A stretch of 64,000 nt of DNA, taken from assembly GCF_000497125.1 (NCBI RefSeq), contig NC_090598.1, forward strand, positions 1,116,001 through 1,180,000, read 5' to 3'. Position 1 is the stretch's first letter, and every line of letters starts with the position of its first letter. The notes under the pieces are model-generated. The model was given only the letters and a program-made list of their open reading frames with translations, was not told the origin of the DNA and did no database searches. Positions 2,898 through 63,325 of the stretch are shown here, piece after piece. This DNA is from Spironucleus salmonicida. Its lineage: Eukaryota. The position numbers and the translations under genes are program-made.

Positions 2898-3309
2898 TTA
2901 TTACTTTTCGATAGTTATTGCGTTGCAGTGCAAAAATGGCCCGCATACTTATAGTAATGATAGTTGATAATGCTATATGACAGTCAATAAACTTTAAAAT
3001 GATGCTTATAATCAAAAATTACTAGGACTGGACATCTCTGGAAGTGTACATACCGTCTAGCTACTACTAGGATGGTCTTCGCAGGTATGCCCGATTTTTT
3101 TGACTCTCTTCCTCTTTCTCTTTTTTTCATATTCATCTCCTGCAATGTCTTGCATCCCTTTTTATAATTCATCCAAATCTTTTTATCTCTCCTCTTCAAT
3201 TTTTTAAATTTCACGCATTTACCGATGAGTATGTTCATCTTTCTCTACCAAATACTGCTTCAGCTCTTGATCAAATATTTAAAAATTAAATGTTAGATCT
3301 AGTTAAACT
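2898..3309. repeat. Right arm of inverted repeat (pairs with 1-412)
   Basis: Reverse complement of 1-412; covers the last 298 nt of the CDS plus about 114 nt downstream of its stop. Confidence 0.95.
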
Positions 3310-4523
3310 TCCTAAAATTTTACCTCAAGAATTATTTTATACAGGTTATTATTCAAAATACTATTATACACACTCTCTTTGTACTCTTGTAAGTCTATTG
3401 GGAGTCTAAAGAACTGCTTCTCATTTAACACTACAATTATGAACAGTTATTGGGATAGAATATTCTATAGTCGATTGGCCACTCGAACCTCAACACCAAA
3501 ATCGTAATATTAAGGGATTGAGTTATATATTTGGCCACCCTACCGATAAAATGCAACCACGCCGCTATAATCGAAAGATTTTAGGTTGAGCGTTCCCATA
3601 CTCTGAATCCGATAAACTTTATTTTGAACCTTCTGATCGCTATTTTGTAAGTTGAGCCAGGAATTAGCCAAATAGGTACACGGTTCAAAGTTATACAGCA
3701 TTGCTGATCCAGTCAGTTACTGTTCAGCGTAATTTTCGATCTTGGCGATGTAAACCTTATGCAGTAAATTTGTATTGTTAACAATTATCCGCATTTATCC
3801 TTGGACGTCATCAATCTTTTTGAGCTTCTTTATGCTTTTGTAGTTCTTGTTTATGACCTTCTCCTCTGGAAGAAACTCTTAAAACCCATCGTTAACTTCA
3901 ATAAGCCCCATGCAGGCAAACATTTGCGAGTTTGTGGCCTGTGCGACCATCTCCTCGCTGAACTTGGCTGCAAAGTTCAGGGTGATCAACTGGCTATGCG
4001 CCTCGATATAGGTAACGCTAAATGAGGCTACTTTCATCTTCATCTAGCCCCTCGGGGTGGAAAATATGCAAACCCGGAAAGAGGTCTAAAACGGGATAAT
4101 TACCGACCGGTTTACCGCGAACAGGCTGTCTCCACATGCCACCAGCTCCGTTTCGAACGCATAGAAGTTGCACTGGATCTGCACGGTGAGCTGCACCTGG
4201 AACGGTAGCTAGACTAACAGGTTGGGGAGCGTAGTGAACTGTGCATACTTGTCAGATCTCACGATTGTGATGTCCAGATTCAGGTCCTCCGCTAACAGCA
4301 GCTCTGTGCGCTGCTCCGCGAGGCTGATGTGCTCCGAAGTGTAGAAAGTGCTCTGCTGTAAGATCTGGCCCCGGTATGCGCGTACCGACAGCTGCACAGT
4401 GAAATTCTGCGTCGCCTCCGCCGGAATCTGCGCCTCTTGCAGGAAAATCAGCGAATTTGATTGTACAGGTACCAGGATTAGTGAGTGATGTAAGAAGTTA
4501 AATTAAAATTAAATCTGCACCAT
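3012..4523 (-). CDS. Hypothetical protein, 503 aa
   Basis: ATG at 4523 preceded by TTCCACT; MVQIQFQFNFLHHSLILVPVQ... in frame with track ORF 4209..4397; ends at TGA 3014-3012. Confidence 0.8.
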
Positions 4524-4700
4524 AGTGGAACTTTACACACCCAAATGTGATAAATCAGTTTTTAAACTAATTTAGTACATTTGAATAAAGTACTCTATAT
4601 AAATATAATATTTAATTTTAAGTGATAACACTTGCTTTTGGGAATAAAAATATTAACATATATTAATAATGAATATATTAAATTATACTCGATATCGTAC

Positions 4701-5120
4701 TCATTCTAGCTTAACACTCTCCCCATAAAGCCTATCATGTCTTCTTTTAAGTAAACATAATTCACTTTACAAACTTAAAATCTATTTTTATCGCTTTTCA
4801 ATAAATTCTTATACCTAAAAAGGACTTAAATCAAGTCTAGAACTAACTGGAAAATATTTTTGCCAACTCTCTCTTGAATCCTTTATTGATGAAACCATTT
4901 TTTCACGCTTCTAAATTGATGTTTATACAATTCCGATAATAGAGATAATATCTTTACAAAAATAGTGTCCAACCCGCTGGGCAGGCGACTGCTTTGGATA
5001 AAATAAATCAATTTCTTTGCGCAGTTCATTTGTGAGCTTCTTAACATTATCTAATGACGAATAATTTATATACTTCATCTGCAAGTTGTTGCTTCCGTCT
5101 GCTGCTACAGAGTTGTCCAT
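4701..5120 (-). CDS. Hypothetical protein, 139 aa
   Basis: Track ORF 4923..5120 reads through TAA to ...ESVKLE-TGA. Confidence 0.65.
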
Positions 5121-5264
5121 TTTCCAAATTATGAAAATATTTTGTCCTATGAAAGATATAATAATACTATATATTTTTCAAATATACTTTTGATATTTTA
5201 TACACAAATATTTAATTTCCCACTAGCTTAACTGTCAAAGCCTGATATTTTAACCCAAAAACCA

Positions 5265-6971
5265 TCACTCCATATCGATTTCGAAAACTGACACTGGAAA
5301 CGGTATCTTAAACTCGTTCAGCTGCTTTATCCCTACAACACCTGCGAATCCGACTCTTTTGCCTTCCAAATAGACTCCGCAGCTTCTGCCGGAAATCATC
5401 CAATCAAAGCTTTCCTCCTTCAAGTGGTAATTCCTGCCTAATCTGACGCCAATTCTGTCGAGTATGCCGTGCAGTTCTCCGAACAAATCAGATGTTCCGC
5501 CTACCAAAACACCGATTTTTACCTCGCAGCTGACCCCCAAATCATTAGATGTTTCGCAAAAGACTTCTGCAGTTTCGAAAATTTTCACCGGAAGCGGTCT
5601 GAACTGACCGCAGCTTGCGGCACGAAGCATTCCCGGGATCAGACTAGCTCTTCCGTGTGAGAAAGTTGCTGTTTTTGCGTTTGCAAGCGCGATCGGAAGA
5701 GGTAATACGAAGGCATCTGAAGCCTGGCAGAGGGAAAAATTAAGTGTTTCGATACAGCCGGACGCTGATAACTCGCGACGTACCGCTTCCTATACTTTAT
5801 ATGAGCGTAAAGTGGAGCCAATAGTGACAGTTCTGGGGTAAGTAGACTATTGTGCGATTTCGTTAAAGCCGTAGCCTATCGCAATGTCTTCAATAAGGTC
5901 GATCTCGTTTAGAACATCGGCACGTTCGAATGGTACTGTGCATATAAGCCCGTTATTGGCAGATTTGATTGCTTTAATTGACATTTTTTGAAGATATGAA
6001 ATCGCTTCTTCTGGCGTAAAAGTGAGACCGATGACGCGGGCAGCCTAGTCGAGAGACATTGAAAATGTGCGTGCGCTTAAATCTGGTGTAGTATTTTGTA
6101 AATTTCTCAACAGTGGAGCGCTAGAAATGTCTTAATAATGGACATCAACTGATTACACTTCACAAGGTGTCGAAGAATGTGCTAATAGGCCAGAAACTAC
6201 AGAATTAAGGGCAATATTGCCTTTTGTTAAATCTGTTGCAGTTACCTCGATGAAAATATCTGTGGTTGTAAGGTCAATTTTAGAGTATTCTGAGTTGATG
6301 ATTGGTGGTAGCGAAAGGACCTCACCAGTAGCATCTCTAATCACTGGCCATACATGAGACTGTTGGATAAGTTATAAGAACTCTTGGAGTTTCTTATCTG
6401 ACTCCAAAACTTCAAATAACTCGTCTCCGTTGAGCTTTTAAGCTTAATTAAGGGCTTTAAAAATGATATTTTTTGGTGACTCAGCCGTGTAAGTTATTTT
6501 CGACGTATCCATTTTCTTCATATCATGAGTTCCAATTGCTCCAAGAGATCTACGTCTACAGACATTATGGTGGAGTTTATCTTAATGGTCAATAAATGAG
6601 TTATATGAACGTTAATTGAGTGATACATTTTTAACAACAGCCGCTACAATGTAGGGTCTGATAATTGCTGTAGATGGGTCAACATTAATCGTGATACCAG
6701 ATGGAGTAGTATTTACTGTTTAATATTCATCCTTTCCTAAGAATACGCGAAGTACACGCACTATATTCTCAGCACAAAGCAAATCTCCACGATTAGCAGA
6801 TACATCAACTTTATAAGTAGGAATCGGAACAGTGCAATTACGCTCTGCCTCGTCAATAATTTCATCTAACTCAATGCCATAACTGGCCATAATTTCGTCA
6901 AGTTTAGAATCCGAAATATCCTCTCCAAATAATTGAATAAAGTATTCACGGGATACAGAAACAGTTGGCAT
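5265..6971 (-). CDS. FARSB: Phenylalanyl-tRNA synthetase beta subunit, 568 aa
   Basis: YKVDVSANRGDLLCAE, QDKLHHNVCRRRSLGAIGTHD, VLSLPPIINSEYSKI, RADVLNEIDLIEDIAIGYGF; three track ORFs join in one frame. Confidence 0.95.
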
Positions 6972-7051
6972 GCAAAGGAATGGTGATATTACTATTATAT
7001 ACTATAATATATATAATATCCTCTATATATTTCAAAATTGATTTTCTGAAA

Positions 7052-7058
7052 CCACTCC
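7052..7058 (+). promoter_or_regulatory. CCACTCC C-rich upstream motif
   Basis: Lies 10 nt before the ubiquitin ATG; the same heptamer precedes several other starts in the window. Confidence 0.7.
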
Positions 7059-7068
7059 ATTTGTGAGA

Positions 7069-7452
<384 letters not shown>

Positions 7453-7554
7453 TTAACTTTTATATAATATAAATTCACTTCACAAAGATAAAGTGAAGAG
7501 GTAAGATAAGGAAATATAGTTTATAATAAAATTTTATAAAAAGAAATAAATTAA

Positions 7555-7947
7555 TCAGTGCTTGAGGGCAAAGTTAAGCTTAGGACAAGCATGATGACGC
7601 TTAGTAACCATGTTAGGCTTGATCTGCTGTTAACGTGTAGAAAGAGCAAGTCTTCTAGCCTTGGTAGTGAACTTCGTGAATCTTTTAGGCTTAACCTTAG
7701 AGGACTCATACTTTTCAGCAAGTTCCTTGAGCTATACAGTACGGATCTGGGTGAGTACACGAGCGATGTCCTTCTGGACATCAGAAAGACGGTTGAGTTG
7801 GTTGGCAACACGACCAGAGACAACCTTAGAAACACGAAGGTTAAGGTGCTCTCTTCTGTATTCATCAAGCTTGGTCTGGAGTTCTTCTTTGGTCATAGCC
7901 TTAAGTTCTTTGTTAAGTTTAACGAGCTTTGAATCTTCGCGAGCCAT
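7555..7947 (-). CDS. RPL35: 60S ribosomal protein uL29 (L35), 130 aa
   Basis: ELKAMTKEELQTKLDEYRREHLNLRVSK...KDIARVLTQI; basic C-tail TKARRLALS; CCACTCC upstream. Confidence 0.93.
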
Positions 7948-8165
7948 CTCAAACGTGGAGTGGAAACGTAAAATTAATTTACATAAATTATGAATATTAT
8001 ATACTTTCTAGTCTATACATATTTTAATCCACTAATTACTAATTATATATATTATAATATAAATTAATAACATTAGTTTCTGTTTGTCTTTGACAAACAT
8101 ATATTTTCAAATAATATAATTTAATATTATATACATTCATATATTACCATCCAATTTAGTATAAA

Positions 8166-10118: not shown

Positions 10119-10125
10119 TAATTCT

Positions 10126-13100
10126 TCACATAGAAACTATGATAGTATCCTTCGGCCCCTTGATCCCAATCTCCCTCCTGCCAGTCTATGAAAACGATAC
10201 AAACGCGCCAGAAATCTCATAAACAACCTATAAACTTTCAAATTCTAGCACTTGAAACCCATCTTTGCTGATCGTTCCAATCCAGCGCGGAAAATCGTAG
10301 AAATATATGAAATCTGCATAGATACACCCTCTACTCAACTCAACGTTTAGAACCTGTCGAAGAGCGCTATTGAAGTACTGGAAAAATATTCTGTTTTCTC
10401 GTAAAAATAAACTCGTCAAGCCACCGTTCCAGGCGTTTTTAAATGTGTAGACTTGATCATAATATTCAACTTAAACCACAAATTGGGCCCGAAAATTAAA
10501 ATCGTATACTTAATATATATAAATACAATCTTGATATAAACAAAAAATTCTACGACTTTCTGTCTGAACAAAACATTTGATGGGAAGATCAATATGCAAT
10601 GGCTAGATTCTGTTTTGGGTCACTAGGAAGAACTCGTTGAAGGCTAAAATAAGAACTTCCTACGGTCCCAAAAATTTAGCAAATTGCGCACGAGATCCAG
10701 TTGGGACTTGCCAAATAAGTATCCTTTCAGCACCCTTTTACAATTAATATATTTTCACGTTATGTTCTTCTATTTCAAGTACTTAATCAATTTCAGGAGA
10801 AATAAAATATGGTAGTGGAAGCTCCTGACACTGAAAATTAGCAGAAATCCCTTCTTTCGATTGAAAGTTAATTTTGACCTTCCGTTCATAAATATATAGT
10901 TTTTCAAGAACTTGGTCAGGCTCCACTCCATAAAAGAGCGATTTTAAAAGCTCTGGATCTGAGAAAGACTAGTATTGCTATTTCTTACTGAAATGCGGAA
11001 ACGTGTTTTCTGGAATTTAGTTACCGAAAATGAGTTGGATCCAGGAATTTATGTGCTAGTTGGTTTCTAATTGTGTGCGAAACTTTGTAAGATTATAAAA
11101 AACTTTATCCAGCTCTATGAGCCCGTCTTATTTAAACTGGTATGTCTCGTTGTAGTCTAAGTTATTGATGTTCGTATAAAATTCCATAGTAGAAAATAGT
11201 TCAGGAGTGAGCTCAGAAAGCGATTTTCCGGTCATAATTTTGTCCCACTAACTCTATATTGAGTGGAACTATCTATCATAGCAATCGTACACGCCATTTT
11301 GTAAATATCTCTAAATGGATGTAAATGGTTCTACTTTAAATAAAAAATGTGAAGCAACTGCTCTATGAGAATAAAATGTCTAAAATAAAGAATTTTTGGC
11401 TTCTGTAATTGATTCTTTGTTATCTTTAAGTTTTTACTCTAATTTATCAACAATATCTTGGCATTACTTCCCTATTATTTCACTATAAATTCTGTTTTCA
11501 CTTATCATAGGAAATATTGGATACTAATATAGGTCATCATATGATCTTCCAGCTAGATAATTAATTGATAAAATGAATGAAAATACAGAAATTTCTTAAA
11601 ATTTATATGATCTCATTAATTATTTTATCTATTATTATACGTTAATTTTCTTCTCCTAAAAAGTTTTAGAAAAACTTGAGTGTTACGTAAATTTATCAAA
11701 ATCTAATTGAGAATTGAATACTAACTAAATAGATTGAGAATCATACTAGACTAACTCCAACATATAAAAATAATTACATAACCGCTTTTCGTAAATCAAT
11801 CTAATGGAATTTAAATTAATCTATTAAAAATTTACATCTAATGTGTGATTTCCGTAATCATATAGACCATCATTTATAGTTCTATCATATTCATCCTTTT
11901 GTACACATTACTACTCCTATTTCTATTATATGATATTCAATAATGATGATATATCATTTTCCTACTATTATTTAATCTTTACTAGTAATAATAAACTATC
12001 CTCAATATAAATATCAAATATTTAATTACCTAACAATTATAGTTTTAACACACTCACAATTTTTTCACTTTTTGGACGGAGATAAGGATATTAAATTTTT
12101 TTAGATAATAATAAAAGAGGTTATAATAAAAATCTTTTCGATGGATAGGTTTTTATATTTGATAATACAATCTAATTTGATTATTCTGAAGAGCATTGCT
12201 ACATAAAATGAAGAAGTTTTTGCAATATATATTACTTATTCTCACAAATAGGGCATATCTATTTGTAACAAATCATGTTGTAGTTATTATTCTTTTTATA
12301 ACAACATTTTGATAAATTTTTCACCTTTACATTTCTATCATCATTCATAACTTTATTTATATTTACTTACATATACAATGACACATGCAACTTATCTAAA
12401 AATAAGTCAACAAGTTATTGGATATCATCATATATGTATTTAAATACAAACTAAAGATGATAATCCCCTATTATTTCTAGTAATAACTACTCTTATTATT
12501 ATTTTATAATTGTTTTTTATTAACAATATACAATTGATGCTACAAAATTATTTCTAACATTCCCGCTTTACTAACTCATATTTCCATTAACAATATATCG
12601 TAATAATTACTATTCATCGATATTAAAAGCAAATATGAATTAATGTACTTTTTCTATAAATTTGTTATGCTTTACTTGATTATTCTTCTAAAATAAAACT
12701 AATTATTCAAAACAATACTATTTACATGCAAAATATTCCCATAAATTATCATCATACTCATTTATTTCTTAGAGTAATATAGTGCAATCTAAAGCAAATT
12801 CATCGTATAAGATCTGTTAATTAGAATAGTATGAATTAAGTATTTAAACCATAATATTTTTATCATTTTAATAATAAGTTAATAAAAGTTTTGTATTATT
12901 TATAGTTATTATAGAAACTAATTTCAAAATTTATGACATAGAAAAATCAATATATTAATTTTCTTTAGTTAACATAGAATAAGTAACACCTAATAATAAT
13001 TAATGATTATTTTATAAAGCATTACAGTCTTCTTCAATTAAATTAGATAAAATTTAATAACAGTACCGGTGACCATCATTCTTTAAATTTAATGTAAATA

Positions 13101-16382: not shown

Positions 16383-17924
16383 TCACTCAAATTTGAAAAC
16401 AAATTTTTAATTTTAAAATGTTCTAGAACCCTTGAGAGTAGTTTTATAACTTTTACTATTATAAACCATGTCGCTTAATATACCTTCAACAAGCCAAGCA
16501 TCCTCTTTCATTTACATCTTAGCTAATATTTCAGCAGATGTACCATGGCATGCTTTTAATTCCTTATCTAATTTCATAGATAACTCGTTTACTCTAGTAG
16601 CAGCTTTCTTACCATCCTAAACTCCTGGCTGATCATATGCATTGATACCCCAGAATGCACCCAAAGTAGATACGATTCTCTCTTCTAAAGCAATTAACTA
16701 ACCAATACAGAATTCACTGCATTTTTTAACGGTAATAGTCATAAACTCTCTACCATTCTAGCTTAAAGCTAATTCAGTGCCTTTCAAAAATGCTAATAAC
16801 TGTCTGCCCATGCTGCCCGCCTTAGAATCTTCGTAATCCTCATGTTTCCTCTCTTAGAACTGAATAAACTTGACAAAACTGTCAGCTACTCCCTTCTGAA
16901 TCTGCTGCATAAAGGCGTGCTGTTCGCCAGTACCAATTCCTCCATAAACGCTCAATCCGCTGGGCTGGATTCTGCCGTCCTTGCAGTATTCCTTACCCAG
17001 GCTCTCCATGTATAGCTGTTAGCAGTAGTGGGCGTACTGCTTCAGGCTCTCAGAGTAGCCCAAAATGATCATGTTCTTGGGCGCCGCGAACTTCTTGATC
17101 AGCGAATCGATCATGGCAGCGATTTCCAAGGCGGGGTTGCCCTCAGCCTTGCGGGTTTCGCAGTCCATCTGCGCCATTCCCTTCAGGAACTCGTCAAATT
17201 TGATGCCCGCAAATGCGCAGGGGACCATTGCCACGGCCGAGCAAATTGAAGTGCGGCCGCCGGTGGGCTCGCACATCTCGAAGGTTTGCAGCCACGAAGC
17301 CGCGAGCTTGTGCAAGTTCGAACCGGGAATCGTGATGGCGATGCAGTGTGCAGAGGGTGACAACGAGGCCTTGGTGAGCAGGTTCAGATAGCACTGCGTG
17401 TTGGTGGCCGTTTCCGCGGTCGAGCCGGACTTTGATATGGTCACCATGAGCGTTTTCTTCACGTCGAGCAGGTCGAAAAGTGTCGAGAACGAGTCGGAAT
17501 CCGTGTTGGCGAGAAAATGGAGGGATGGGAGGCCTCTTTTCTGGAGGCTAAGATTGTAGTCATCTCCCAACATAGCCTAAATAAGCATGTATGGGCCTAA
17601 ATATGAGCCACCGATTCCGTTAAAAATGATGTGTTTGTAGTCGTTTCTAATGCTGGAAACAAACGTATTTACTTTTTCCCAGAGCTTCAAAGAGTGTTCC
17701 AGTGACTTGCCAGGTACCAATTCTTGCGTTAAACGGTGGTTGTAATGATCAACTGGGCGATTTTCGGACTCTGAAGCAACAGATGTTTTATTGACAATTT
17801 CGCCTTTCTCAATAGCAGCAAACTCAGCGAGAGCTATTTCGAAGTTCTTAGCATACCTTTTGCTATCGAAAGTCATGTTAGTGGAGATAGTCATATCAAC
17901 ATCAGAGTAATATGTAGTCTTCAT
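16383..17924 (-). CDS. GPI: Glucose-6-phosphate isomerase, 513 aa
   Basis: IGGSYLGP, ISKSGSTAET, GGRTS, QQLYMESLGK, GTGEQHAFMQ, FWGINAYDQPGV. Confidence 0.96.
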
Positions 17925-18774
17925 TTGGTGAGGGAGTGGATAGATTTGATAGAAGAAATTTTAAATAATAGATATAATAATAGAAAAAGATTAAACGCAA
18001 TGAACTTATGGTGTTATTTCATATTCCAATAATCTAATTGATTGTGAAGAATTCATCGGATCTTACTACTTTCATTTATACTAACGATGTACTACAAGGG
18101 GATGATGAAAATAAGTAATTATTATAAAATAAGGAAATAGCATATTTACTAGGATAAATAATTTGTTTTTAAGTATAAGATGGAAATATTTATTACACAA
18201 AATTTCACTACTTACTGTAAAAGAATTAATTTATTTCATTCTATCTTCTGTCATAATTCTAATATATTAATCGGATTTAAAATATATTATTATAGCAGAT
18301 AATTAAAAATATTCATTTAATCTCATAATTTTGGATTAATAACATATATAATCATCGTCGTAATTAATTTAAAGTGATTATAGTAATTTACGGTAGACGT
18401 ATATCTTAAACTATAAAAATAAAATAAACATTATAATGTACTTATTTTTAGTCTTTATATAAACAAATAACAGCTACCTAAGTTAAAATCATAGATAATA
18501 TGATATCAAAGAATTTAACCAAGTTAAGTTAATTATATTTAGTTTTTTATGATTACTCGAATAAATGTGATTGATGATTGTAAAAAATATAAAATAAATA
18601 TTCATTTAATGCATACGATTTATTTTTTTATCCGCATAGACTATATATCAAAAATTAACTTAAAGCCAATCTTAAATTTTATAAAATTTTATTTTAAACC
18701 TCAATATGTAAGATAACCTGTAATTTGATTATATATTTTATGCTTTGAAAAACTATGAAACATCTTCCATACCT

Positions 18775-43294: not shown

Positions 43295-45853
43295 ATGTCT
43301 CTTATTGCGTTTGATCTTGGAAATTGTAATATTTTAGCTACCGTCCCTCGTGGTAAAGGTATAGATGTCGTTACATCTGACACTTCTTCAAAGTAAATTC
43401 CATCTTGCGTATCGTATACATCCGAAAGAAGATTCTTCGCTGATGCGGCTTCTTCTTAAAAAATTACCAACAGAACTGCTTGTTATTATTATTTACCTCT
43501 AATTTGTGGTGAAAAGTATGATTCTGAAGCTGTAAAGCGTGCATTTGATGCTGGTGCTTAATTCACTCTTAAGGCTTCAGAATAAGACGGAAGAGCTTTA
43601 GCTCCTGTCTTCTTCGGAGAAGACAATATAGCTATTGAAACTGAATAATTAGCAGCTGCTATGTTTTGTTAGGTAAAAAAGTATGCAGAATCTATGGATA
43701 GTGTTATGCCATATGATTTCCTTCTGACTGTACCTGGATATTGGTCTACTGAGAAAAAGATGAAGATGAAAGCTGCAGCATAGTCTACTGGTCTTAATTG
43801 TTTAGGTATAGTTACTTAGCATTCTGCTGTTGGTATAGGTTACTATATGAGAAGAGTACAAGAATTCTAGGCTATGGATGCTGATAACAAAGGCATTACT
43901 GTTGGATTTTTATCAATTGGTGAGATAGAAAGCTATTGTGTTGTTATTTAAATGAATAAAAGTGGAATCACCACCCTTAACTAAGCCCATTCTATGTAAG
44001 TAGGTTCTATTGATTTCGATAAAGTTTTAGCGTCTATGATTGTCGATGCTGCTTTGTTAAAAACCAAATAGATCACTAGGGATGAACTACTATCCAAAAA
44101 ATCTTAGATTAAAATTATGAAGGCTGCAAATTAAGCTAAGAAGACTCTTTCTATTAATTAAAATGCGCCTGTTACATTAGAATGTATTGGTGACAATTAG
44201 ATTGATATTCCTGTTATGCTTAATTTAAATGACTTTGAAGCAAAGTGCAAAGAATTAGGTATAATTGATAAAATTACTCAGTTAATAACTGAAGGTTTAG
44301 GCGAAACAAAACCCTAAGACTTAGAAGCATTCGAATGCATAGGTGGTGCTTCCAGAGTTAAAGCTATCTAAAATTAAGTTTCATCTATCTTTGGGGATAA
44401 AGTTACGAAGCGTCTTAATGCTGATGAGGCTCCTGCTTTTGGTCTTGGCTGGGTAGGCGCACTTCGTTCATCAAAGCATAGAATTCCGTTTGATCTTAAA
44501 ATTTCTGACAAAATATGTAATTTAAAGGCTCCTATTACATTTTAAGTTTATAATAGGGAAACAAATGAGAAAGTTTTTGATTCTCCATTTACTATGTTTG
44601 AGAATGGTGAAAACTATCCTAAATCTAAGAAAATAACCTTACGTTTCAAACCAGGTCAGTATCGTTCTGTCTTAACAGAAGGTGATATTATGCACGAAGA
44701 ATAATTTTTCACCATTAATGAAAAGAATTTGACATAATTCACAGATACTGAGTTTGCTACTGCCAATGGTGTTGATTTCAACGATTTAACAATTTAAGTT
44801 AAAGCAAGAATTTTAGCTGATGATGATTGCAACTACAAATTAGCTCAACTGTAAAGAAATGATTAGGATCTTGTTTTGGATGATATTAAGAAGAAGGTTA
44901 AAAATGAAAAATATGACGAGTAACAAGAATAATACAAGACCAAAGTAGCCAAAATTGAGGAAGATTTTACTACTGCGAATGCTGCATATGAGCCATTATA
45001 GAAAGCATATGAGATCGAAAAATCAACAGCCGAAGCCGCTAAAACCGAGTTACCTAAAGCCCCAGCAAAGCCCGTTCGTGCTACAATGCCAACCCCTCCT
45101 TCTGAAAACGTTGAAGTTACTGAAAAAGTTCCTAGAATAGCGTCTTTCTTAAGAGATATCATTTTAGCAGGCTAATTCTAAATTTCTAACACCACTTCGC
45201 TAGTGAAGGAAATCCTCAAATTTGAAGCTCATTGTAAGCAAATCGATAGGAATTCCCTCCGATTCGATGCCGCTGTCAACAACTTAGAGAGCCAGATTTA
45301 CTCGACTAGAGAAGCATTTGACTACGGAAACCTGAATGAGTTCGTTACTGAAGAAGAACTCACGCAGATCAATGCCTGGCTTGATGCTGAGCATGCTTTT
45401 GCCCAAAATATTGAAGGTAAGCACTAGCTGACAATCATAGAAGAAAAAGCTGCTGAATTGGAAGGGAAACTTAAAATATTTTTCGATAGAAAGAACTGCC
45501 ACTGCTAGACCGAAGAGAAGCTTTATGGTCTCAGGTCTGAAATTAAGCTTCTTTGTGAGAAGTTCAGTCACGAAAAATGCGCTTAAATTCACGCATAATT
45601 AAACGCCACAATCTAAGAAGTTGAAGCCAGGATTGCTGTTGTAAACAAGAAAGCAGAGATTCCAGACTGCTTTGAGGGCGTAAACTCCACTGTCCAGAAA
45701 TTCGAAGAGGAAATGAGAAAGATTCAGAAGGAAATTGATGCTGAGATCAAGGCAGAAGAGGAAAAAGCAAAGAAGGCCAAGGATGAAGAGGAAAAAGCTT
45801 AGAAAGAGGCCGAAGCTTCTGCCAAAAAGGAGGTAGTCGAGGAGAAAAAGTGA
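43295..45853 (+). CDS. Hsp110/Hsp88 (HSP70-superfamily nucleotide exchange factor), 852 aa
   Basis: IAFDLGNCN...GIDVVTSDTSSKQIPSCVSY, LTVPGYW, FECIGGASRV, RLNADEAPAFG, NNLESQIYSTR. Confidence 0.9.
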
Positions 45854-46077
45854 TGATTGTTGTTTAAACAATAATTGAAGATAATATTATTTCTCTCATG
45901 TGTTACAATTATACAAGAGATAAGTGAGACCTTGTTTGTAATTATGGAGCTGATTAAAAGTCTATACGGAAATACAAAACTAATAAATATTATAATAATT
46001 ATATAATAATAGTAACTGTGGAAATAGTTATTTGAAGCAAGATTATAAATCTTAATAATTTTTATTAATTTGAAAAT

Positions 46078-53808: not shown

Positions 53809-53941
53809 TTTAAGACCCAAATGATTATAGTACTATAATATATAATAATTAGTATACCTTCCAAAATATTATTTTATTTTTAATTATATAATAGTTACTA
53901 ATATTAATTTTTCCCATTTCTTATTTTTTCCATTCCTCGCT

Positions 53942-54349
53942 ATGTAGATTGCTCCCAATACTGCTAAGAATGTCGAAAAGCTTGACGCGATGAAGTTCCT
54001 CACCAAACTCAACAACGTAACTAAAATCTCATTCACGAAGAGCGGCACTGACTTCGTCATCAACAACCCAGTCTGCTACTACAACGAGGATACGAAGACC
54101 CACATTTTCCTCGGCGAGCCCAAGCCATTCGACCCCAATGCACAGGCAAACCAGATCCTGAACATGATCCAGAACATGCCAAAGAACATGCCTGACACTA
54201 CACCCGTGCACGATACCTCCGCCACCTTCAACGAAGAGGACGTCAAGACCATCGCCTCACAGGCCAACGTCTCCGAGGAGGAGGCCCGCCAGGCGCTCAT
54301 CGACAAGCAAGGTAACGTTGTCGAGGCCCTTTTGGTCTGTAAGAAGTGA
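53942..54349 (+). CDS. NACA: Nascent polypeptide-associated complex alpha subunit (NAC + UBA domains), 135 aa
   Basis: VTKISFTKSGTDFVINNPVCY...HIFLGEPK; C-terminal EEDVKTIASQANVSEEEARQALIDKQGNVVEALL; ATG TAG extends the track ORF upstream. Confidence 0.9.
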
Positions 54350-54361
54350 CGCTTTCCATAC

Positions 54362-55501
54362 TCACTCAATCTCTAGGCTCTGCAGGTCCTCGAAGGCGAT
54401 TGATGCCAGCGGCGGTGTCTGCTGGTTGATCATATTCTGACTTAAAAGCAGCTGAACTGGTGAATTCAGGCCGAACTGGACGGGCTAAATTAGGATCTTT
54501 GGCAACAAATATTTTTATTACCTTATCGTATGGTATAGATGGGAAAGGTTCTGCCTATCCGTTCCAAGCTACAAAATGTCAAATTCTGGAGTATGACCTC
54601 CCTAACTTGCAAGGATAATGGTGAGCTGAGAGTTACCGCCGAATATTAGAAAGTCGTCATTGGCGTCACAAAGTCTATAAATCGAACCAGTTCCCGGCAT
54701 TGGGAACCAGTCCAAATTCACAAAAAATCCATTTCTTACCTCTGGGGAAATAGGGCCGCATGAAGTGTAGATTATTGCATATTTAAATGTTACAACAGAT
54801 GTTTATTTGTCTGTTACTGTCCTCAAAATTTTTTGTGGAGTGGCAAATTGAGCTTGAAACATGAGTATCGCGTCGCAGTCTGTATGAATAATAAGGTAAT
54901 TATTCTCGTAGCTGAAACGATTTAAGCAGGTTTTGAACGGAATTTGAATCTCGAAAAAGCTGGAATTGAGGATGTAAAATAACTGGTTATTGTTGAGAAG
55001 AATAAATATAAAATTTTGGACGCACTAAAGTTATTTAATTGTAGTTTTCGCATGTTTTAATATATTTTTAATAATAGTTTAGCCCGGAGAAACTGCTTTA
55101 GGGGAATGAAATTTTCCTGTTAAATCGATATAGTTATTATTTAGTAATCCTATAATTTTTTGTTTTGTTTTTATTTTCTTGAATTCGAACAATTTAGATA
55201 CTTGGATTACAAAATTGGCAAAGTAAATATGTGCTATTTCATTATAAATTTCATGGTGCAGAGGAGGTGATTTGATAAATTCTATATTTTTATATTAGAA
55301 CAGTATTTCGAGTTTGTAAAGGTCATAAATATGTATATCCCCGGAAATGAATATAATTATTGCAGTATCTAAATAGATGAATAATTAACTGATTTACTAC
55401 CCAAATTATACTTCTTTTACTTCTAATTACCATTGATAGAAAGGAACCTATTAAAATGCTTGTTTTCCATTCAGTCCAGTAATAAAATTATACTCATTCA
55501 T
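54362..55501 (-). CDS. Hypothetical protein (possible beta-propeller), 379 aa
   Basis: MNEYNFITGLNGKQAF...LQSLEIE-TGA; beta-strand-like pattern. Confidence 0.65.
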
Positions 55502-58084: not shown

Positions 58085-58216
58085 GAATTTTATATATTAT
58101 TATATCATCATACACGAATAATATCATATTTAATTAAAGACAAATAATATATAATTTATTTATTATATTATTGAACGTAATATTTATATCTTTTTCCACT
58201 CCAAATTTCAACAAAA

Positions 58217-59896
58217 ATGGACTCTTCCTTTTTTCTGCTGAAGTACTGCCCACCTTTACGCAAGATTTTCACAAAGCACTTTGTGCTTAAATTTCTTATT
58301 TCACTTATCTATACAACCGGTTTCTCGGCAGTTTCCCTGCTCATCCTGCCATCCTCCCCGGCGCTGGCCCAGAAAGATACCTTTGTCAAGCTGCTCACAC
58401 TACCATTTATTTCAAACATTATTGCCATTTCTTCTTCATCCTACATGTTCTTACCAGTTACTATTCTTACGGTACTGATTTTCGTCCCTATTGATACCCC
58501 AAATTTCGTTTTATGGCTAATATCGGGCGTAGTTTTTGTCAAATTTTCAACCTTCTCTGCCGAGCGCTTCACCCACGTGGACTACCACTATTCGTCACGA
58601 TCTGCCCTGCTGGGAGACTCGGTCAAAACCGCATTCAAGCGCACCTTTCCACATCTACTAATATGGTAATTTCTGAAGCAGCCGCTCAGTAGTTTCGACC
58701 TCGTAGCAGCGTATGCGTTGCTTCTTTTTGCTTCCATTTCGTTCGCATAACCTTTGTTCTTTGGACTACTGTACGAACCCGTGAAGCAGATTCAGAATGA
58801 TCCGATTCGCCTAGCAACTATTTCTGCAAATCTGTCGTGTTATTTAGCCTTTCGGGCAGATAATAATCTGAAATATCACAATCAAATTTAGGAGCTTCAG
58901 AGGCTTCAAAAAGAGAAAGGAAAGAAAGCTAAACTAACTGAACCAAGAATTAGGTTGATTTTGACGTCTCGAGCCGATAGTTTCGTTATTTCACAGACTA
59001 TTTGTGCAATTCAGCATTTGATTTAGACTGATTTGTAGGGTTCGCTAAATAATACATAATAATTGGTTAGTCCTGCAATTTAACTTGCTGAAAAACTACG
59101 TTCGTTGTTACCCCCTCAGAACTCGTTAACACACCTATTTGAAGCTAATGTTGCCGCTCCTGCTCCTTTGCACTTTTTCCTAGATTTCTTGACGTTTGCC
59201 GCCACGGATTCATTATCTAGAAGTTTTATTGAAAAATAGAACTCTTAAACAATTTTCAGAATTAATTAATTAGTCAAAAAATTGAACTAAGTTTATAGTG
59301 GGGAAACTGTGTTGAAATTAAATTAGATGGTTATGATGTAGGAAAATGATGACTAGTTGGAATTTGATTAGGAACAGCTGTTTGGATTTGGTGTAAATGG
59401 TTTAGATATGGAGAATGATAATGAAACTAAAAAATCTGAATTTAATATTATCAGCGAGGGACGCAAGAAAATTAAGCTTACTCCATTTTAGTTTGTTTCG
59501 TTATATTTGTTCAGCAATTTAACATTTGACTAGCTTATCAATGATCCTGATGCTATTCAAACCTATTTATAACAGAAAGCTATTTTGAAGCTTTAAAATA
59601 AAACTAATTTTATGCATAAACTTATCAATATATTAACGTTCAAATAACTTAGACATTTTGCTGGTGTTTAAGCAAGCTGCTCTGAAGATTTAATTGCGTT
59701 GAGATTCACGTTAGCTGCTGTTTCCGATGTGTGTTTTGGGTTGAGAGGAAATTAGAGCTATTATTTAAGCAAGGAAGCTGGGTTTGAAATTCTAAAATGT
59801 GTAATGTTTGCAGTTTTAAAAAGTGGGCGGAAAGGGAAGTAAGTTGACTAGGTCCTTACCGGTGTTAAAATATAAATGAATTTAATGCGTGAATGA
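58217..59896 (+). CDS. Hypothetical membrane protein (N-terminal multi-TM region, soluble C-terminal domain), 559 aa
   Basis: Track ORF 58217..58669 reads through TAA; CCACTCC upstream; ends LMRE-TGA. Confidence 0.75.
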
Positions 59897-60908: not shown

Positions 60909-61120
60909 ATATTAATACTGGTATAATGCATTATTTATCTATTACTAAAGCTATAATTTAAGAATCAAACCTAATTAAACTATGATATAATTCGTCAGCC
61001 TAATTCAGTTTAATGAACAAATAAATAAGACACATATACAGCTATAACATAGACTAACTTGATTATGCTGAACTTATTGAGAAAATCTATATAAAAAGAA
61101 TTATTAAACTACCAGATATT

Positions 61121-62116
61121 TCACTCAATATCATTAATCCATTTAATTTTAGCGGATAGCTTTCGTTTTGAAGTTTATAAAGTCGTTAAAAATGATCGAA
61201 TCGGGTTACTTCCAATCTATTAAATCTAAATCGTGTCTAAAAGCGATAGGTCATGTCCTTCTGCAAGATTTTTGTATTTTATCAGACTTCTATCTATTTC
61301 ACATTTAATTGTACTCATGATTAGATTTATTTCATCATCAAATCTATCATTTTCTTTTTTATCAAAGAGCTTTAATATACATTTTTCTATCACAAAGCAA
61401 CTATATCTATTTTCAAAAATAATTTGCTCTATTCCTGTAAATAATAATATTTTTATTAAAAGCAGTATTTAATTAAAATTTATTAAATCATCATAAATAA
61501 GTTTTTCTAGTAAATGCGAGGCGTGCTTTCCAAAAACTAACTCCCTTGCATTAGTAATTAATGAATCAATTATAGAGTCTGGACAAAGGGGGTTTGCTAA
61601 TATGTGTTATATTACATAGTTTCCAGTAGTCGAATTAGCTATCTGAACTATGTTTTAATTTATTTAAACAACAAGGTGCGGTGGGATAGAATTGTTTTTC
61701 AAGAGAATTCGAAGTGGCCATGATGAATGTTAATGAATAGCAAATAATAATAAATTTTAGTTATCAGATAGAAGATTAAAAAAGTAGTCTACGATAAATG
61801 GAAATTGATTTATGACATATTAAATAATATGGTTTCCATACTCATTAAAACAGAGCTAATAAAGATTCTCCATAATTTTAGGAAGCAATATGGTATTTGT
61901 CTAGATTGGATCATTAGCCAAAACATTTTGAATATAAATTGATCCCTAGTGCGTCTTAGATAACGCCACAAACTCTAGTTCTATATTAGTAAGCTCTGGA
62001 TTAATCTTTGCTGCGAAGGAATCACTACCCTAGAAGCATATTTCTGGAGATCGCTCATAAACTTTGACATCCGACAGATCAGGCTGGTGCTGCAACGAAA
62101 ACTTGGTCATCTTCAT
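61121..62116 (-). CDS. Pumilio/PUF-repeat RNA-binding protein, 331 aa
   Basis: LSKTHQGSIYIQ, LCFNEYGNHIIQ, IANSTTGNYVIQ, LVFGKHASHLLE. Confidence 0.85.
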
Positions 62117-62223
62117 TTTAAAAAATAAACGATATATTATACAAATTAGAGCCAATTTACTTATTTTTCAACTTTGTAAGTTATTGAAATTACATCTTTG
62201 CCCCCGAAATCTGCCCACTCCCA

Positions 62224-63039
62224 ATGTCTTACGATCTGAAGGACCACGCATTCTGCACCCAGAACGACAAGACACAGCACGTCGTCGTACGACGGATCGA
62301 GCCTGGGAGCGCATTCTACGTGCAGAACTTCGGTTCAGGGCGACTCTTTCCAGCGCGGCTCGCGGAGCTGCGGCCCTTCGACCTCGAGGTCGCGAAGACG
62401 CTGAAAAACAAGAAGACACTCGCGTTTGTAGAGTAGGTGCTGGAGGGCAAGGTGCTCCGGACAGCGCAGAAGCAGTTCCTGTTCGATGGCGAGGTGCTGC
62501 GCGAGCAGCCGAAGCGGCGCGGGACGCTGCACAACGCGCTGGAGCTACGGTTCCGGCTGCCGCACTTCCTCTTCGCAGCGCAGCTTCCGCAGGTCCGCGT
62601 CGCCACGGAGACGCTCCAGGTGCAGCAGGAGTCGCTGTCCACGTACTTGAACGTCTGTAACAACCACTCCTGTATAGTGCTCCCAACGAGCGCAGCTGCA
62701 CAGCTGCTGGAGATGAAGGCGCAGCTGCCGCTGGCGCCCGCCGCGCCCCCGAAATCTGGCGACTTGCTGGGCGCTTTGGCGCGGGTCCGGCGCGGTGCTG
62801 TGGCTGCGCCACTGGCCGAGTTCCAGCGCGACTTCCTGGCCGAGTTCGCGCCCGTGTTCTCGGAGGGCGAAATCGGCACCGCGGAGGCCGTTTTTGCGCT
62901 TTTCGGGTCAGGCGATGTGCGCCAAATCGTCAACTTTTGCAACTCGCTCGCACACGAGCGCTACGGCCTCCGGGAGCGCTGCATGCTCGTCTGCATCGTT
63001 GATTTCCTGGGCCAGCGCTAGTACCAGTACTTCAAGTGA
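62224..63039 (+). CDS. GC-rich hypothetical protein, 271 aa (possible Tudor/chromo-barrel plus MRG-like helical domain)
   Basis: Track ORFs 62224..62436 and 62437..63021 join through TAG codons; CCACTCC directly upstream; ends QYFK-TGA (AGTGA). Confidence 0.8.
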
Positions 63040-63325
63040 GCAGCGTATTTTTTGTTTTCAGTGTATAATAATGCAAAAATTTAATAACGGATTTGTATAT
63101 ATTATGTAATTTTAATGATAGATTTTCGGTAAGTTACCGTTTCTTTATATGGAGGCCTAACTTGCTTAGGTGCAGGAATTTCTTAAGTGCATATAACTAA
63201 GTTCACTGTTCAATGAAAATATGTTTGACGCAATTAAATATTTCTCCAACATTGACTCCTCTATAAATACGTAATTTGATAATTCTGAAATAGAGTTTTA
63301 GGTTTTAGATTTTTTCACTAAGGAA

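What the first reader, a model, noticed from the sequence alone, without database searches (positions are those of the whole stretch)
3000..63040. Recurrent GC-rich islands with a C-to-G strand-skew switch: possible replication-origin footprints
Seen (by eye, not computed): 0.5-1.5 kb GC/CpG-rich patches occur near 4.2, 5.6, 10.5, 17.2, 27.6, 34, 45.5, 54.3, 58.8 and 62.6 kb. They ignore gene boundaries, covering parts of GPI, CFAP65, the TPR-like gene and Hsp110. In most, the top strand is C-rich on the left flank and G-rich on the right, whichever strand is coding. Established: leading strands often gain G over C, giving this polarity at fixed origins. Inference: these may be stable replication origins, or recombination/gene-conversion hotspots, every roughly 4-11 kb and recorded in synonymous sites. 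I am not aware of this being described for hexamitids.
Basis: partly seen in the sequence, partly recalled or inferred. Interest (0 to 1): 0.7.

Follow-up and report, generated by a model that had tools for sequence, protein, structure and literature searches.

The report
GC-rich patches inside hexamitid genes
Kilobase-sized GC-rich patches that cut across genes in this AT-rich diplomonad chromosome are real and carry a modest C-then-G strand asymmetry, but such patches were already described (unexplained) in Spironucleus, and the sequence alone does not show that they are replication origins.

Summary
The window is hexamitine diplomonad nuclear DNA (TAA/TAG read as Gln, 30.3% GC). Eleven GC-rich islands of 0.3-2 kb lie at or near the stated positions. 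They are recorded at synonymous sites: fourfold-site GC is 0.50 inside and 0.18 outside, and GC3 jumps within single genes (CFAP65 17 to 63%). G and C rise equally. Contigs from a second study bridge three intragenic island edges without a mismatch.

The C-to-G switch is real at all sites (10 of 11 islands, permutation P about 0.003, robust to island definition). It is carried mainly by codon positions 1 and 2. At fourfold sites and in an amino-acid-normalised synonymous test it has the same sign but is not significant. AT skew does not switch. A C-to-G switch is reverse-complement symmetric, so independence from coding strand is automatic.

Sharp GC shifts of this kind were published for Spironucleus salmonicida in 2007 and 2010 and called unexplained. 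No skew polarity was found in print.

Best reading (about 0.45): tracts of GC-biased gene conversion at recurrent recombination or repair sites. Replication origins remain possible (about 0.12) but are not supported by this sequence alone. Whole-genome analysis or origin and break mapping would decide.

The parts
3465..4617 (.). GC island 1 (GC 0.435), covering the 5' two-thirds of an unnamed minus-strand ORF (3012-4580). GC3 is 64-79% at 3900-4400.
5175..6337 (.). GC island 2 (GC 0.427), covering the 3' two-thirds of the Phe-tRNA synthetase beta gene (5265-6971, minus strand).
7043..8021 (.). GC island 3 (GC 0.385). It holds ribosomal protein uL29 (7555-7947, minus strand) plus a 0.5-kb stretch with no assignable gene.
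10123..10458 (.). GC island 4 (GC 0.402), at the extreme 3' end of the 2023-aa BEACH-domain gene (10126-16197, minus strand).
16643..17952 (.). GC island 5 (GC 0.473), covering most of the glucose-6-phosphate isomerase gene (16383-17924, minus strand). GC3 is 76-88% at 17000-17500 and falls to 18-30% in the last 90 codons.
27305..28113 (.). GC island 6 (GC 0.435), covering the 3' end of the TPR-like gene (24643-27903, plus strand) and running towards the converging MatE-like gene (28207-30444, minus strand). The spacer 27900-28200 drops to 26-37% GC.
   Evidence: RNA-like contigs bridge the edge at 27305 in 4 of 4 runs.
33399..35368 (.). GC island 7 (GC 0.426), covering the 3' third of CFAP65 (33459-39638, minus strand). 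GC3 is 17-29% upstream and 49-63% in the island.
   Evidence: RNA-like contigs bridge the edge at 35368 in 4 of 4 runs.
44915..45903 (.). GC island 8 (GC 0.400), covering the 3' third of Hsp110 (43295-45853, plus strand). The conserved N-terminal ATPase domain lies outside it, with GC3 of 21-27%.
   Evidence: Contigs bridge 44915 in 4 of 4 runs, and a poly(A) loose end lies at 45868.
53861..54897 (.). GC island 9 (GC 0.440), covering the whole NAC-alpha gene (53942-54349, plus strand, GC3 76%) and the 3' end of a converging unnamed gene (54362-55660, minus strand).
58185..58999 (.). GC island 10 (GC 0.418), covering the 5' third of an unnamed plus-strand gene (58217-59896). The upstream spacer at 58100 has 15% GC.
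61987..63220 (.). GC island 11 (GC 0.530), filling a 271-aa orphan gene (62224-63039, plus strand, GC3 81-84%). GC drops to 21% immediately upstream.

Best explanation
The islands are tracts of 0.3-2 kb in which AT-to-GC changes have been fixed far more often than in the rest of an AT-rich chromosome. The process depends on position along the DNA rather than on the gene. It most likely is GC-biased gene conversion at sites where homologous recombination or break repair recurs between the genome copies of this multi-copy, two-nucleus cell.

Shown here: the enrichment is strongest at synonymous sites, also touches codon positions 1 and 2, raises G and C equally, and starts and stops inside genes.

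Inferred: heteroduplex repair favours G:C; tract length sets island width; and the short intergenic spacers stay AT-rich because the AT-rich promoter and poly(A) signals packed into them are under selection.

The C-then-G polarity is a second, modest feature. It may be a strand bias of the same repair process, or a by-product of protein composition (downstream halves are richer in Ala, Gly and Glu). This window cannot tell which.
For: - Fourfold-site GC is 0.503 inside and 0.179 outside. GC1 rises 0.355 to 0.494 and GC2 0.273 to 0.357.
- At fourfold sites, on the coding strand, C goes 0.092 to 0.261 and G 0.086 to 0.241, while T falls 0.455 to 0.264. [quoted passage not shown]
- GC3 is heterogeneous within genes: CFAP65 p=8e-28, GPI 5e-15, TPR 5e-12.
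- Islands do not follow protein conservation. The conserved Hsp110 ATPase domain and the N-terminal CFAP65 Ig domains lie in GC3-poor sequence.
- Islands are not repeats of one another and hold no RNA genes.
- They are not assembly artefacts: contigs from a second study bridge 3 of 3 intragenic edges examined, in 4 of 4 runs, with no differing letters.
- CpG o/e is 1.00 inside and 0.68 outside.
- Literature: duplicated regions of S. salmonicida average 44.7% GC against 30.7% for the rest, and allelic heterozygosity is 0.09% (PMC9509377, passages). High-GC3 genes of S. salmonicida lack high GC3 in their S. barkhanus orthologues, so the islands turn over quickly (PMC2874811, passages). Yeast GC3 peaks are attributed to biased gene conversion (PMC2997560, start of abstract in the search listing only; PMC3020949, passages).
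Against: - Nothing in this window measures recombination. No variant letters were listed in the laid runs, so there is no polymorphism test.
- Unassigned or non-coding sequence inside the islands is only 0.311 GC against 0.252 outside, and spacers drop to 15-37%. A purely neutral conversion bias would not spare them unless selection is invoked.
- The most extreme island is a single-copy orphan gene, so copy-to-copy conversion cannot explain it.
- Andersson et al. 2007 found codon usage in high-GC3 genes to be less uniform than base composition predicts, and concluded that neither mutational nor selection scenarios explain the pattern easily (PMC1805757, section 15).
- Sexual and parasexual processes have not been observed directly in Metamonada (PMC8516963, passage).
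- The trend for islands to sit at gene ends, which the yeast conversion-tract model predicts, is not significant here (last 150 codons versus interior: 8 of 13 genes, p=0.34).
Confidence: 0.45

Rival explanations
1. The islands are fixed replication origins. The C-then-G switch is the leading- and lagging-strand mutational asymmetry, and the GC richness is a property of the initiation zone, as proposed for human CpG islands.
For: - The polarity (C-rich left, G-rich right on the top strand) is that of bacterial origins and of the upward skew jumps at human origins. It is significant at all sites (P=0.0026, 10 of 11 islands; robust).
- It is seen in genes on both strands and in unassigned sequence.
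- Fourfold-site skew in the inter-island intervals runs +0.07, +0.10, -0.08, -0.15, -0.13. The after-minus-before difference is 0.228, with P=0.058 by circular shift and 0.010 by label shuffle.
- Polak and Arndt 2009 report origin-like asymmetries starting at CpG islands together with a conversion signature inside them (PMC2817419, abstract).
Against: - Inside the islands the switch is not significant at fourfold sites (d from -0.04 to +0.35) or in the amino-acid-normalised synonymous test (odds ratio 1.12-1.16, P=0.11-0.19). That test gives a contrast of about zero in GPI, PheRS-beta and CFAP65.
- There is no AT-skew switch (0.008, P=0.78), whereas replication asymmetry as I recall it usually pairs G>C with T>A.
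- All-site skew returns to zero or below by +-750-1000 bp.
- Centre spacings of 1.7-2.8 kb at the left of the window would be unusually dense for origins.
- An origin does not by itself explain GC3 of 80-90%.
Confidence: 0.12
2. The islands reflect a regional mutational bias that does not involve recombination, for example error-prone repair synthesis or a distinct chromatin or replication-timing state that shifts the local mutation spectrum towards G:C.
For: - The compositional facts are the same as for the best explanation: a strand-symmetric rise of G and C at synonymous sites and a smaller rise at positions 1 and 2.
- Andersson et al. 2007 list regional variation in mutation among the candidate causes (PMC1805757, section 15).
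Against: - Edges are sharp on a 100-300 bp scale, and the adjoining spacers are AT-rich. Both are hard to obtain from a chromatin-domain mutation bias.
- The reported GC excess of duplicated regions (PMC9509377) points to an effect that depends on homology.
Confidence: 0.15
3. The islands are maintained by selection on synonymous sites, for codon usage, translation speed, mRNA stability or structure, in particular gene segments.
For: - GC enrichment is much stronger in coding sequence than in the spacers next to it.
- Some islands fill whole small genes of a typically abundant class (uL29, NAC-alpha).
- Andersson et al. 2007 infer some selection on codon usage in high-GC3 genes from reduced Nc' (PMC1805757, section 15).
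Against: - Islands begin and end in the middle of long genes (CFAP65, TPR, BEACH, Hsp110).
- G- and C-ending codons rise equally and T-ending ones fall, which is opposite to the U-ending preference reported for highly expressed genes (PMC1805757, passages).
- GC also rises at positions 1 and 2.
- The uL29 gene has only GC3 of 44%.
Confidence: 0.12
4. For the skew part only: the C-then-G switch is a by-product of protein composition within the islands (upstream halves richer in Thr, Pro and Asn; downstream halves richer in Ala, Gly and Glu) and not a mutational footprint.
For: - The switch is carried by positions 1 and 2 (d=0.154, P=0.011), and it shrinks to a non-significant odds ratio of 1.12-1.16 once amino-acid content is factored out.
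- Amino-acid differences between halves: Ala +2.7, Gly +2.0, Glu +1.7, Thr -2.2, Asn -1.5, Pro -1.1 percentage points.
- A purine-skew switch of 0.068 (P=0.004) with no AT-skew switch.
Against: - Random placements within the same genes give a null centred on zero, so there is no general 5'-to-3' trend to borrow.
- The sign is the same in unassigned sequence (-0.038 to +0.079), at position 3 and at fourfold sites in genes on both strands.
- The CCC/GGG asymmetry is spread over all codon phases.
- A mutational bias would itself reshape amino-acid content.
Confidence: 0.35
5. The islands are mosaic segments brought in by recombination with, or transfer from, a GC-richer donor.
For: Boundaries inside genes are sharp. 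Some high-GC3 Spironucleus genes show signs of transfer (PMC1805757, section 15).
Against: - The affected genes are core eukaryotic genes whose best relatives are other metamonads (GPI: Hexamita inflata 62%, then other fornicates).
- The orphan unk62k has no relative at all.
- Andersson et al. 2007 argue that most high-GC3 genes are not transfers (section 15).
- All islands use TAA/TAG as sense codons, like their flanks.
Confidence: 0.04

Closest known systems
G+C-rich genomic regions and high-GC3 genes of Spironucleus salmonicida (Andersson et al. 2007, PMC1805757; Roxstrom-Lindquist et al. 2010, PMC2874811)
   Same: An AT-rich hexamitine genome with sharp shifts to high G+C. GC3 lies above the regional G+C inside the rich regions. 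The shifts are not tied to the presence or absence of genes and are not explained by lateral transfer or by the codon preferences of highly expressed genes. The window's 30.3% GC matches the 30.7% reported for the non-duplicated genome (PMC9509377). This is very probably the same phenomenon, perhaps in the same species. The species is inferred, not shown: the nearest named relative is Hexamita inflata at 62%.
   Different: The passages I saw in those papers describe regions of several kb and whole-gene GC3 values. Here the scale is 0.3-2 kb, with edges inside genes and AT-rich spacers. No strand-skew polarity is mentioned in the passages I saw, and 'GC skew' occurs 0 times in the two later genome papers.
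GC3 peaks of Saccharomyces cerevisiae chromosomes, attributed to GC-biased gene conversion near meiotic break sites (Lynch et al. 2010, PMC2997560, start of abstract only; Marsolier-Kergoat 2011, PMC3020949, passages)
   Same: A compact unicellular genome with kb-scale GC3 variation along chromosomes and within genes. Width is set by conversion-tract length (median about 2 kb for tracts associated with crossovers).
   Different: The amplitude here is far larger (GC3 from 15-20% up to 80-90%). The enrichment towards gene ends predicted by the yeast model is not significant here. Recombination has not been mapped in any hexamitid.
Human CpG islands as sites of bidirectional strand asymmetry plus a gene-conversion signature (Polak and Arndt 2009, PMC2817419, abstract)
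   Same: GC-rich islands not depleted of CpG (o/e 1.0 against 0.68 outside) with an origin-type polarity centred on them. Both replication and recombination have been invoked.
   Different: The human asymmetries run for up to 1 Mb in intergenic DNA and were measured as substitution rates. Here the signal is a composition skew within about +-0.5 kb, mostly at amino-acid-determining positions, with only a marginal hint in the flanks. These islands lie in gene bodies rather than at promoters.
Runaway GC regions of gerbil genomes (Pracana et al. 2020, PMC7403616, start of abstract in the search listing only)
   Same: Localised extreme GC enrichment that also alters conserved proteins, attributed to biased gene conversion.
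   Different: Those are large chromosomal regions in a mammal. 'GC skew' there means GC enrichment, not strand asymmetry.

Membership tests
Replication-origin skew footprint (bacterial or human N-domain type) | Upward jump of top-strand GC skew (C-rich to G-rich) at the site | tested here: met
   All sites: -0.091 to +0.062, 10 of 11 islands, P=0.0026. P<=0.003 under all alternative definitions.
Replication-origin skew footprint (bacterial or human N-domain type) | The jump is present at neutral (fourfold or synonymous) sites | tested here: inconclusive
   Fourfold d ranges from -0.04 to +0.35 with P of 0.04-0.55 depending on the centre. The normalised synonymous odds ratio is 1.12-1.16, P=0.11-0.19. 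Power is low, with about 400 G+C sites per side.
Replication-origin skew footprint (bacterial or human N-domain type) | An AT skew switches together with the GC skew (T>A with G>C on the leading strand; recalled, not taken from a call) | tested here: not met
   AT-skew switch is 0.008 at all sites, with 5 of 11 islands positive and P=0.78.
Replication-origin skew footprint (bacterial or human N-domain type) | The skew persists through the flanks and reverses before the next origin (N-shape) | tested here: inconclusive
   Fourfold sites between islands: difference 0.228 (n=289 and 205), P=0.058 by circular shift and 0.010 by label shuffle. No such trend at all sites.
Replication-origin skew footprint (bacterial or human N-domain type) | Initiation of DNA synthesis mapped at the site | not testable with these tools
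   No replication data are available. Only assembled contigs of public runs could be laid.
GC-biased gene-conversion hotspot tract | AT-to-GC enrichment at all site classes, strongest at synonymous sites | tested here: met
   Fourfold 0.179 to 0.503; pos3 0.221 to 0.525; pos1 0.355 to 0.494; pos2 0.273 to 0.357.
GC-biased gene-conversion hotspot tract | Strand-symmetric gain of G and C, with no specific codon favoured | tested here: met
   At fourfold sites on the coding strand, C goes 0.092 to 0.261 and G 0.086 to 0.241.
GC-biased gene-conversion hotspot tract | Width on the scale of conversion tracts (about 1-2 kb) and independent of gene borders | tested here: met
   Islands are 336-1970 bp long. 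Edges lie inside CFAP65, TPR, BEACH, Hsp110 and PheRS-beta.
GC-biased gene-conversion hotspot tract | Non-coding sequence inside the tract is equally enriched | tested here: not met
   Unassigned sequence inside islands is 0.311 GC against 0.252 outside, and spacers drop to 15-37%. Selection on AT-rich signals could explain this, but that is an added assumption.
GC-biased gene-conversion hotspot tract | Coincidence with measured recombination, or a fixation bias for AT-to-GC alleles | not testable with these tools
   No variants were listed in the laid runs, no whole genome is held, and no outgroup DNA is available.
Spironucleus-type G+C-rich regions (Andersson et al. 2007) | Sharp G+C shifts in an AT-rich hexamitine genome, with GC3 above the regional G+C and both rich and poor regions dense with genes | tested here: met
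   Table 6 coding. Compared with PMC1805757, sections 6 and 15.
Spironucleus-type G+C-rich regions (Andersson et al. 2007) | The organism is Spironucleus salmonicida | tested here: inconclusive
   The window's own GPI lies on a 1.8-Mb contig. The nearest named relative is Hexamita inflata at 62%, and no separate Spironucleus entry was listed. Window GC is 30.3% against the published 30.7% for the non-duplicated genome. This is suggestive only.
Translational-selection codon bias of highly expressed genes | Gene-wide bias towards the species' preferred codons | tested here: not met
   The bias covers only parts of genes. T-ending fourfold codons fall from 0.455 to 0.264, whereas U-ending codons are the reported preference (PMC1805757, passages).

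The most novel reading that the evidence does not exclude
The islands mark fixed sites where a strand-asymmetric DNA transaction starts. The boldest version is recombination-dependent initiation of DNA synthesis. The same sites would then be both gene-conversion hotspots (making the GC islands) and replication initiation zones (making the C-then-G polarity and the fourfold-site N-shape between islands), in a lineage whose origin-recognition machinery is reduced and divergent (PMC8516963, passages).
Probability: 0.08. Interest if true: 0.85.

Novelty: already known. Interest (0 to 1): 0.4.

Why it matters
The cause of the extreme G+C mosaic of Spironucleus has been an acknowledged open question since 2007.

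This window adds three things:
- The mosaic has a fine grain of 0.3-2 kb, with edges inside genes.
- It spares the intergenic spacers.
- Each patch carries a reproducible C-then-G polarity.

If the polarity holds at neutral sites across the whole genome, it would give a sequence-only handle on where replication or recombination starts in a diplomonad. Neither has been mapped in this group, and sex has never been observed directly. If it does not hold, the islands remain a strong natural case for studying how far a GC-biased process can drive protein-coding sequence.

Tried and rejected
- Whole genome: none is held for this window, so all statistics rest on 11 islands in 64 kb.
- A codon log-odds gene finder trained on the confident genes did not separate frames in this heterogeneous sequence. 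Gene models therefore rest on long table-6 ORFs plus Pfam. Several ORFs (3012-4580, 54362-55660, 58217-59896, 62224-63039) have no Pfam support, and the stretches 1-3000, 8100-10100, 30450-33450, 51050-53000 and 59900-62200 were left unassigned.
- Structural RNAs as the cause of the GC peaks: 0 Rfam matches and 0 tRNAs.
- Islands as copies of one element: no similarity between islands.
- G-quadruplex motifs: none on either strand.
- A shared motif behind the CCC/GGG asymmetry: the counts follow mostly from base composition and are spread over all codon phases.
- Islands at gene ends: not significant.
- Lateral transfer or a multi-copy origin for the most extreme island: only the window's own protein was found.
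- Earlier notes of this scan: none for this genome. The two Giardia notes returned by the word search were not used as evidence.
- Public runs: no RNA holder is listed on record. Four runs guessed to be RNA were laid. Parts without cover, and word depths, were not used as evidence. No variant letters were listed, so no polymorphism test was possible.
- Hinch et al. 2023 (PMC7615360, passages) shows that break-centred strand asymmetry exists in humans, but the passages did not let me assign which polarity it predicts, so I drew no support from it.
- Supplementary files of the Spironucleus papers (per-contig non-coding G+C, gene tables) were not available and may hold relevant detail.

Full report
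WHAT THE WINDOW IS

Under the standard code only 2 ORFs of 150 aa or more exist. With TAA/TAG read as Gln (table 6) there are 107, including ORFs of 2138, 2023 and 1830 aa.

Pfam confirms real genes in these frames:
- Phe-tRNA synthetase beta, 5265-6971, minus strand
- ribosomal protein uL29, 7555-7947, minus
- a BEACH protein, 10126-16197, minus
- glucose-6-phosphate isomerase (GPI), 16383-17924, minus
- a weak TPR match, 24643-27903, plus
- a MatE-like protein, 28207-30444, minus
- CFAP65, 33459-39638, minus
- Hsp110, 43295-45853, plus
- a DEAD-box helicase, a MutL homologue and a SNARE
- NAC-alpha, 53942-54349, plus
- IFT52

The window's GPI lies on a 1.8-Mb contig. Its nearest named relative is Hexamita inflata at 62% identity, followed by other fornicates. 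So this is a hexamitine diplomonad with a chromosome-scale assembly. The 30.3% GC matches the 30.7% published for the non-duplicated part of the Spironucleus salmonicida genome (PMC9509377, passage). The species is an inference, not a result. No whole genome is held for this window.

THE ISLANDS ARE REAL

A 300-bp scan at GC>=0.40 gives 11 islands of 336-1970 bp with GC of 0.385-0.530.

They are not repeats of one another and contain no Rfam family or tRNA.

GC by site class, outside then inside the islands:
- fourfold sites: 0.179 (n=3551), then 0.503 (n=1470)
- third positions: 0.221, then 0.525
- first positions: 0.355, then 0.494
- second positions: 0.273, then 0.357

As a check that does not depend on how the islands were defined, GC3 of 139 blocks of 100 codons has SD 0.148 against 0.045 expected from sampling. 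Homogeneity within genes is rejected for CFAP65 (p=8e-28), GPI (5e-15), TPR (5e-12), unk3k (3e-8), BEACH (5e-6) and others. It is not rejected for IFT52, DEAD, Ank or unk39k.

In the island cores GC3 reaches 76-91%. CpG o/e is 1.00 inside and 0.68 outside, while GpC o/e is 1.26 in both.

Contigs from four RNA-like runs of a second study carry a poly(A) loose end 15 nt after the Hsp110 stop codon. They bridge the intragenic island edges at 27305, 35368 and 44915 in 4 of 4 runs with no differing letters. So the islands are neither assembly artefacts nor separate genes.

HOW THE ISLANDS SIT RELATIVE TO GENES

Some islands fill a small gene: NAC-alpha, the orphan at 62224-63039, most of GPI, and uL29. 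Others occupy one end of a longer gene:
- the 3' end of CFAP65, TPR, BEACH, Hsp110, PheRS-beta and the gene at 54362-55660

The GC peak lies in the 3' 40% of its gene in 8 of 11 islands. But the contrast between the last 150 codons and the interior is positive in only 8 of 13 genes (p=0.34), so this is a weak trend.

Islands do not follow protein conservation. The conserved Hsp110 ATPase domain and the N-terminal CFAP65 Ig domains lie in sequence with GC3 of 17-28%.

The short spacers inside or beside islands fall back to 15-37% GC (27900-28200, 58100, 62100, 63000-63200, 4500-4700, 53800). Unassigned sequence inside islands is only 0.311 GC.

THE NATURE OF THE ENRICHMENT

On the coding strand at fourfold sites, C rises from 0.092 to 0.261 and G from 0.086 to 0.241. 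T falls from 0.455 to 0.264 and A from 0.366 to 0.233.

So the process raises G and C alike and favours no particular codon ending. It runs against the mostly U-ending codon preference reported for highly expressed S. salmonicida genes (PMC1805757, passages).

THE SKEW SWITCH

A C-then-G pattern on the top strand is also C-then-G on the bottom strand read 5' to 3'.

All sites:
- With centres at island midpoints, pooled top-strand skew is -0.091 on the left (n=3574 G+C) and +0.062 on the right (n=3525). Ten of 11 islands are positive.
- Random placement of 11 centres gives P=0.0026, and circular shifts give P=0.0046.
P is always <=0.003.
- It is seen separately in plus-strand genes (-0.075 to +0.058), minus-strand genes (-0.128 to +0.059) and unassigned sequence (-0.038 to +0.079).
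- It is local, strongest within +-500 bp and gone by +-750-1000 bp.
- CCC outnumbers GGG in the left half of 11 of 11 islands. Totals are 83 CCC against 29 GGG on the left and 35 CCC against 60 GGG on the right. The switch has P=0.0012, is spread over all codon phases, and is mostly what base composition predicts.

Where the switch fails:
- At third positions the difference is 0.07-0.23, with P of 0.013-0.28.
- At fourfold sites it ranges from -0.04 to +0.35 depending on the centre rule and is mostly not significant.
- A logistic test pooled twofold and fourfold sites and factored out amino-acid content. It gives an odds ratio of 1.12-1.16 (P=0.11-0.19). Eight of 11 islands are positive, but the contrast is near zero in GPI, PheRS-beta, CFAP65, Hsp110 and unk3k.
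- Positions 1 and 2 carry a clear switch (0.154, P=0.011).
- In protein terms, downstream halves gain Ala (+2.7 points), Gly (+2.0) and Glu (+1.7). They lose Thr (-2.2), Asn (-1.5) and Pro (-1.1).
- AT skew does not switch (0.008, P=0.78).

It is neither shown nor refuted, because power at fourfold sites is low, with about 400 G+C sites per side.

One hint favours a wider asymmetry. In the inter-island intervals, fourfold-site skew runs +0.07, +0.10, -0.08, -0.15, -0.13 by fifths. The after-minus-before difference is 0.228, with P=0.058 by circular shift and 0.010 by label shuffle.

WHAT IS IN PRINT

- Andersson et al. [quoted passage not shown] GC3 lies above the regional G+C in rich regions, there is no link to gene presence, transfer is not the cause for most genes, and the pattern is not explained by the preferred codons of highly expressed genes. 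They call it a 'peculiar phenomenon' and name regional mutation, recombination and replication or transcription domains as candidates.
- Roxstrom-Lindquist et al. 2010 (PMC2874811, passages) report 14 S. salmonicida genes with GC3s above 75%, none of whose S. barkhanus orthologues share this. The pattern is therefore recent or labile.
- The 2014 and 2022 genome papers (PMC3916229 and PMC9509377, passages) give average G+C values and the 44.7% G+C of duplicated regions. 'GC skew' occurs 0 times in each.
- A search for 'GC skew' with 'Spironucleus' returns one unrelated paper. A search for 'diplomonad' with 'replication origin' returns 13 papers, none with both terms in the title or abstract.

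So the islands are already known, and the polarity was not found in print within the held library.

MECHANISM

The best-supported reading is GC-biased gene conversion at recurrent recombination or repair sites (confidence about 0.45).

For it:
- the shift is strand-symmetric and strongest at synonymous sites
- tract widths of 0.3-2 kb
- edges inside genes
- the reported G+C excess of duplicated DNA
- very low allelic heterozygosity (0.09%, PMC9509377)
- the fast turnover between sister species

Against it:
- the AT-rich spacers need an added assumption of selection on promoter and poly(A) signals
- the most extreme island is a single-copy orphan
- nothing here measures recombination
- sex has not been seen directly in metamonads (PMC8516963, passage)

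The origin reading (about 0.12) has the right polarity and the marginal N-shape. It lacks the AT-skew partner, is unproven at neutral sites, would require origins as close as 1.7 kb, and does not explain the GC richness by itself.

Other rivals are a recombination-independent regional mutation bias (about 0.15), selection on synonymous sites (about 0.12) and mosaic import (about 0.04). For the polarity alone, a by-product of protein composition has about 0.35.

The closest analogue for the combined picture is the human CpG island as described by Polak and Arndt 2009 (PMC2817419, abstract). It shows a conversion signature inside the island and origin-like asymmetry around it, but on a far larger scale and measured from substitution rates.

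VERDICT

The islands are fully confirmed. The polarity is confirmed at all sites but not at synonymous sites.
The gene-conversion alternative is better supported than the origin alternative.
- The islands are an already described but unexplained feature of Spironucleus-type genomes. The fine grain and the polarity are new details that a whole-genome analysis could settle quickly.

Noticed in passing
window 1-415 and 2895-3309: A 415-bp inverted repeat at 99.76% identity brackets about 2.5 kb of AT-rich sequence (GC 22-30%) at the left end of the window. Its right arm overlaps the 3' end of the ORF at 3012-4580.
   Followed up: no
window 45853-45868: Contigs of two RNA-like runs end in a run of A at 45868, 15 nt after the Hsp110 TGA stop. 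This fits the stop-codon-overlapping polyadenylation signal described for Spironucleus (PMC3916229, passage).
   Followed up: partly
window 33445 and 44534: In all four laid runs, one contig matches the window up to 33445, and another matches from 44534 onward. Each then continues for 213-255 letters unlike the window. These could be shared short words, chimeric contigs or another genomic junction.
   Followed up: no
window 33472-36762 and 26636-28160: In all four runs, the contigs covering the 3' 3 kb of CFAP65 and the 3' 1-1.3 kb of the TPR-like gene are separate from the small contigs further upstream. This could be a 3'-biased library or shorter transcripts. The tool warns that contig depth cannot rank parts of a gene.
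   Followed up: no
window 7043-7555: A 0.5-kb stretch of 34-44% GC lies between PheRS-beta and uL29 with no assignable gene. Three overlapping ORFs there (6946-7410 minus, 7115-7594 plus, 7269-7865 minus) have no Pfam match.
   Followed up: partly
window 62224-63039: A 271-aa orphan gene with GC3 of 81-84%. The only match in the 5.8-billion-protein search is its own entry. The opposite strand is also open (62079-62996), as expected for GC-rich DNA in an organism where only TGA is a stop codon.
   Followed up: partly
whole window outside the islands: CpG is depleted in the AT-rich bulk (o/e 0.68), while GpC is not (o/e 1.26). The cause is unknown.
   Followed up: no
window 39638-39816 and 43071-43295: The two clear divergent promoter regions (CFAP65/unnamed gene and Ank/Hsp110) carry no GC island, so the islands are not a promoter feature.
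   Followed up: partly
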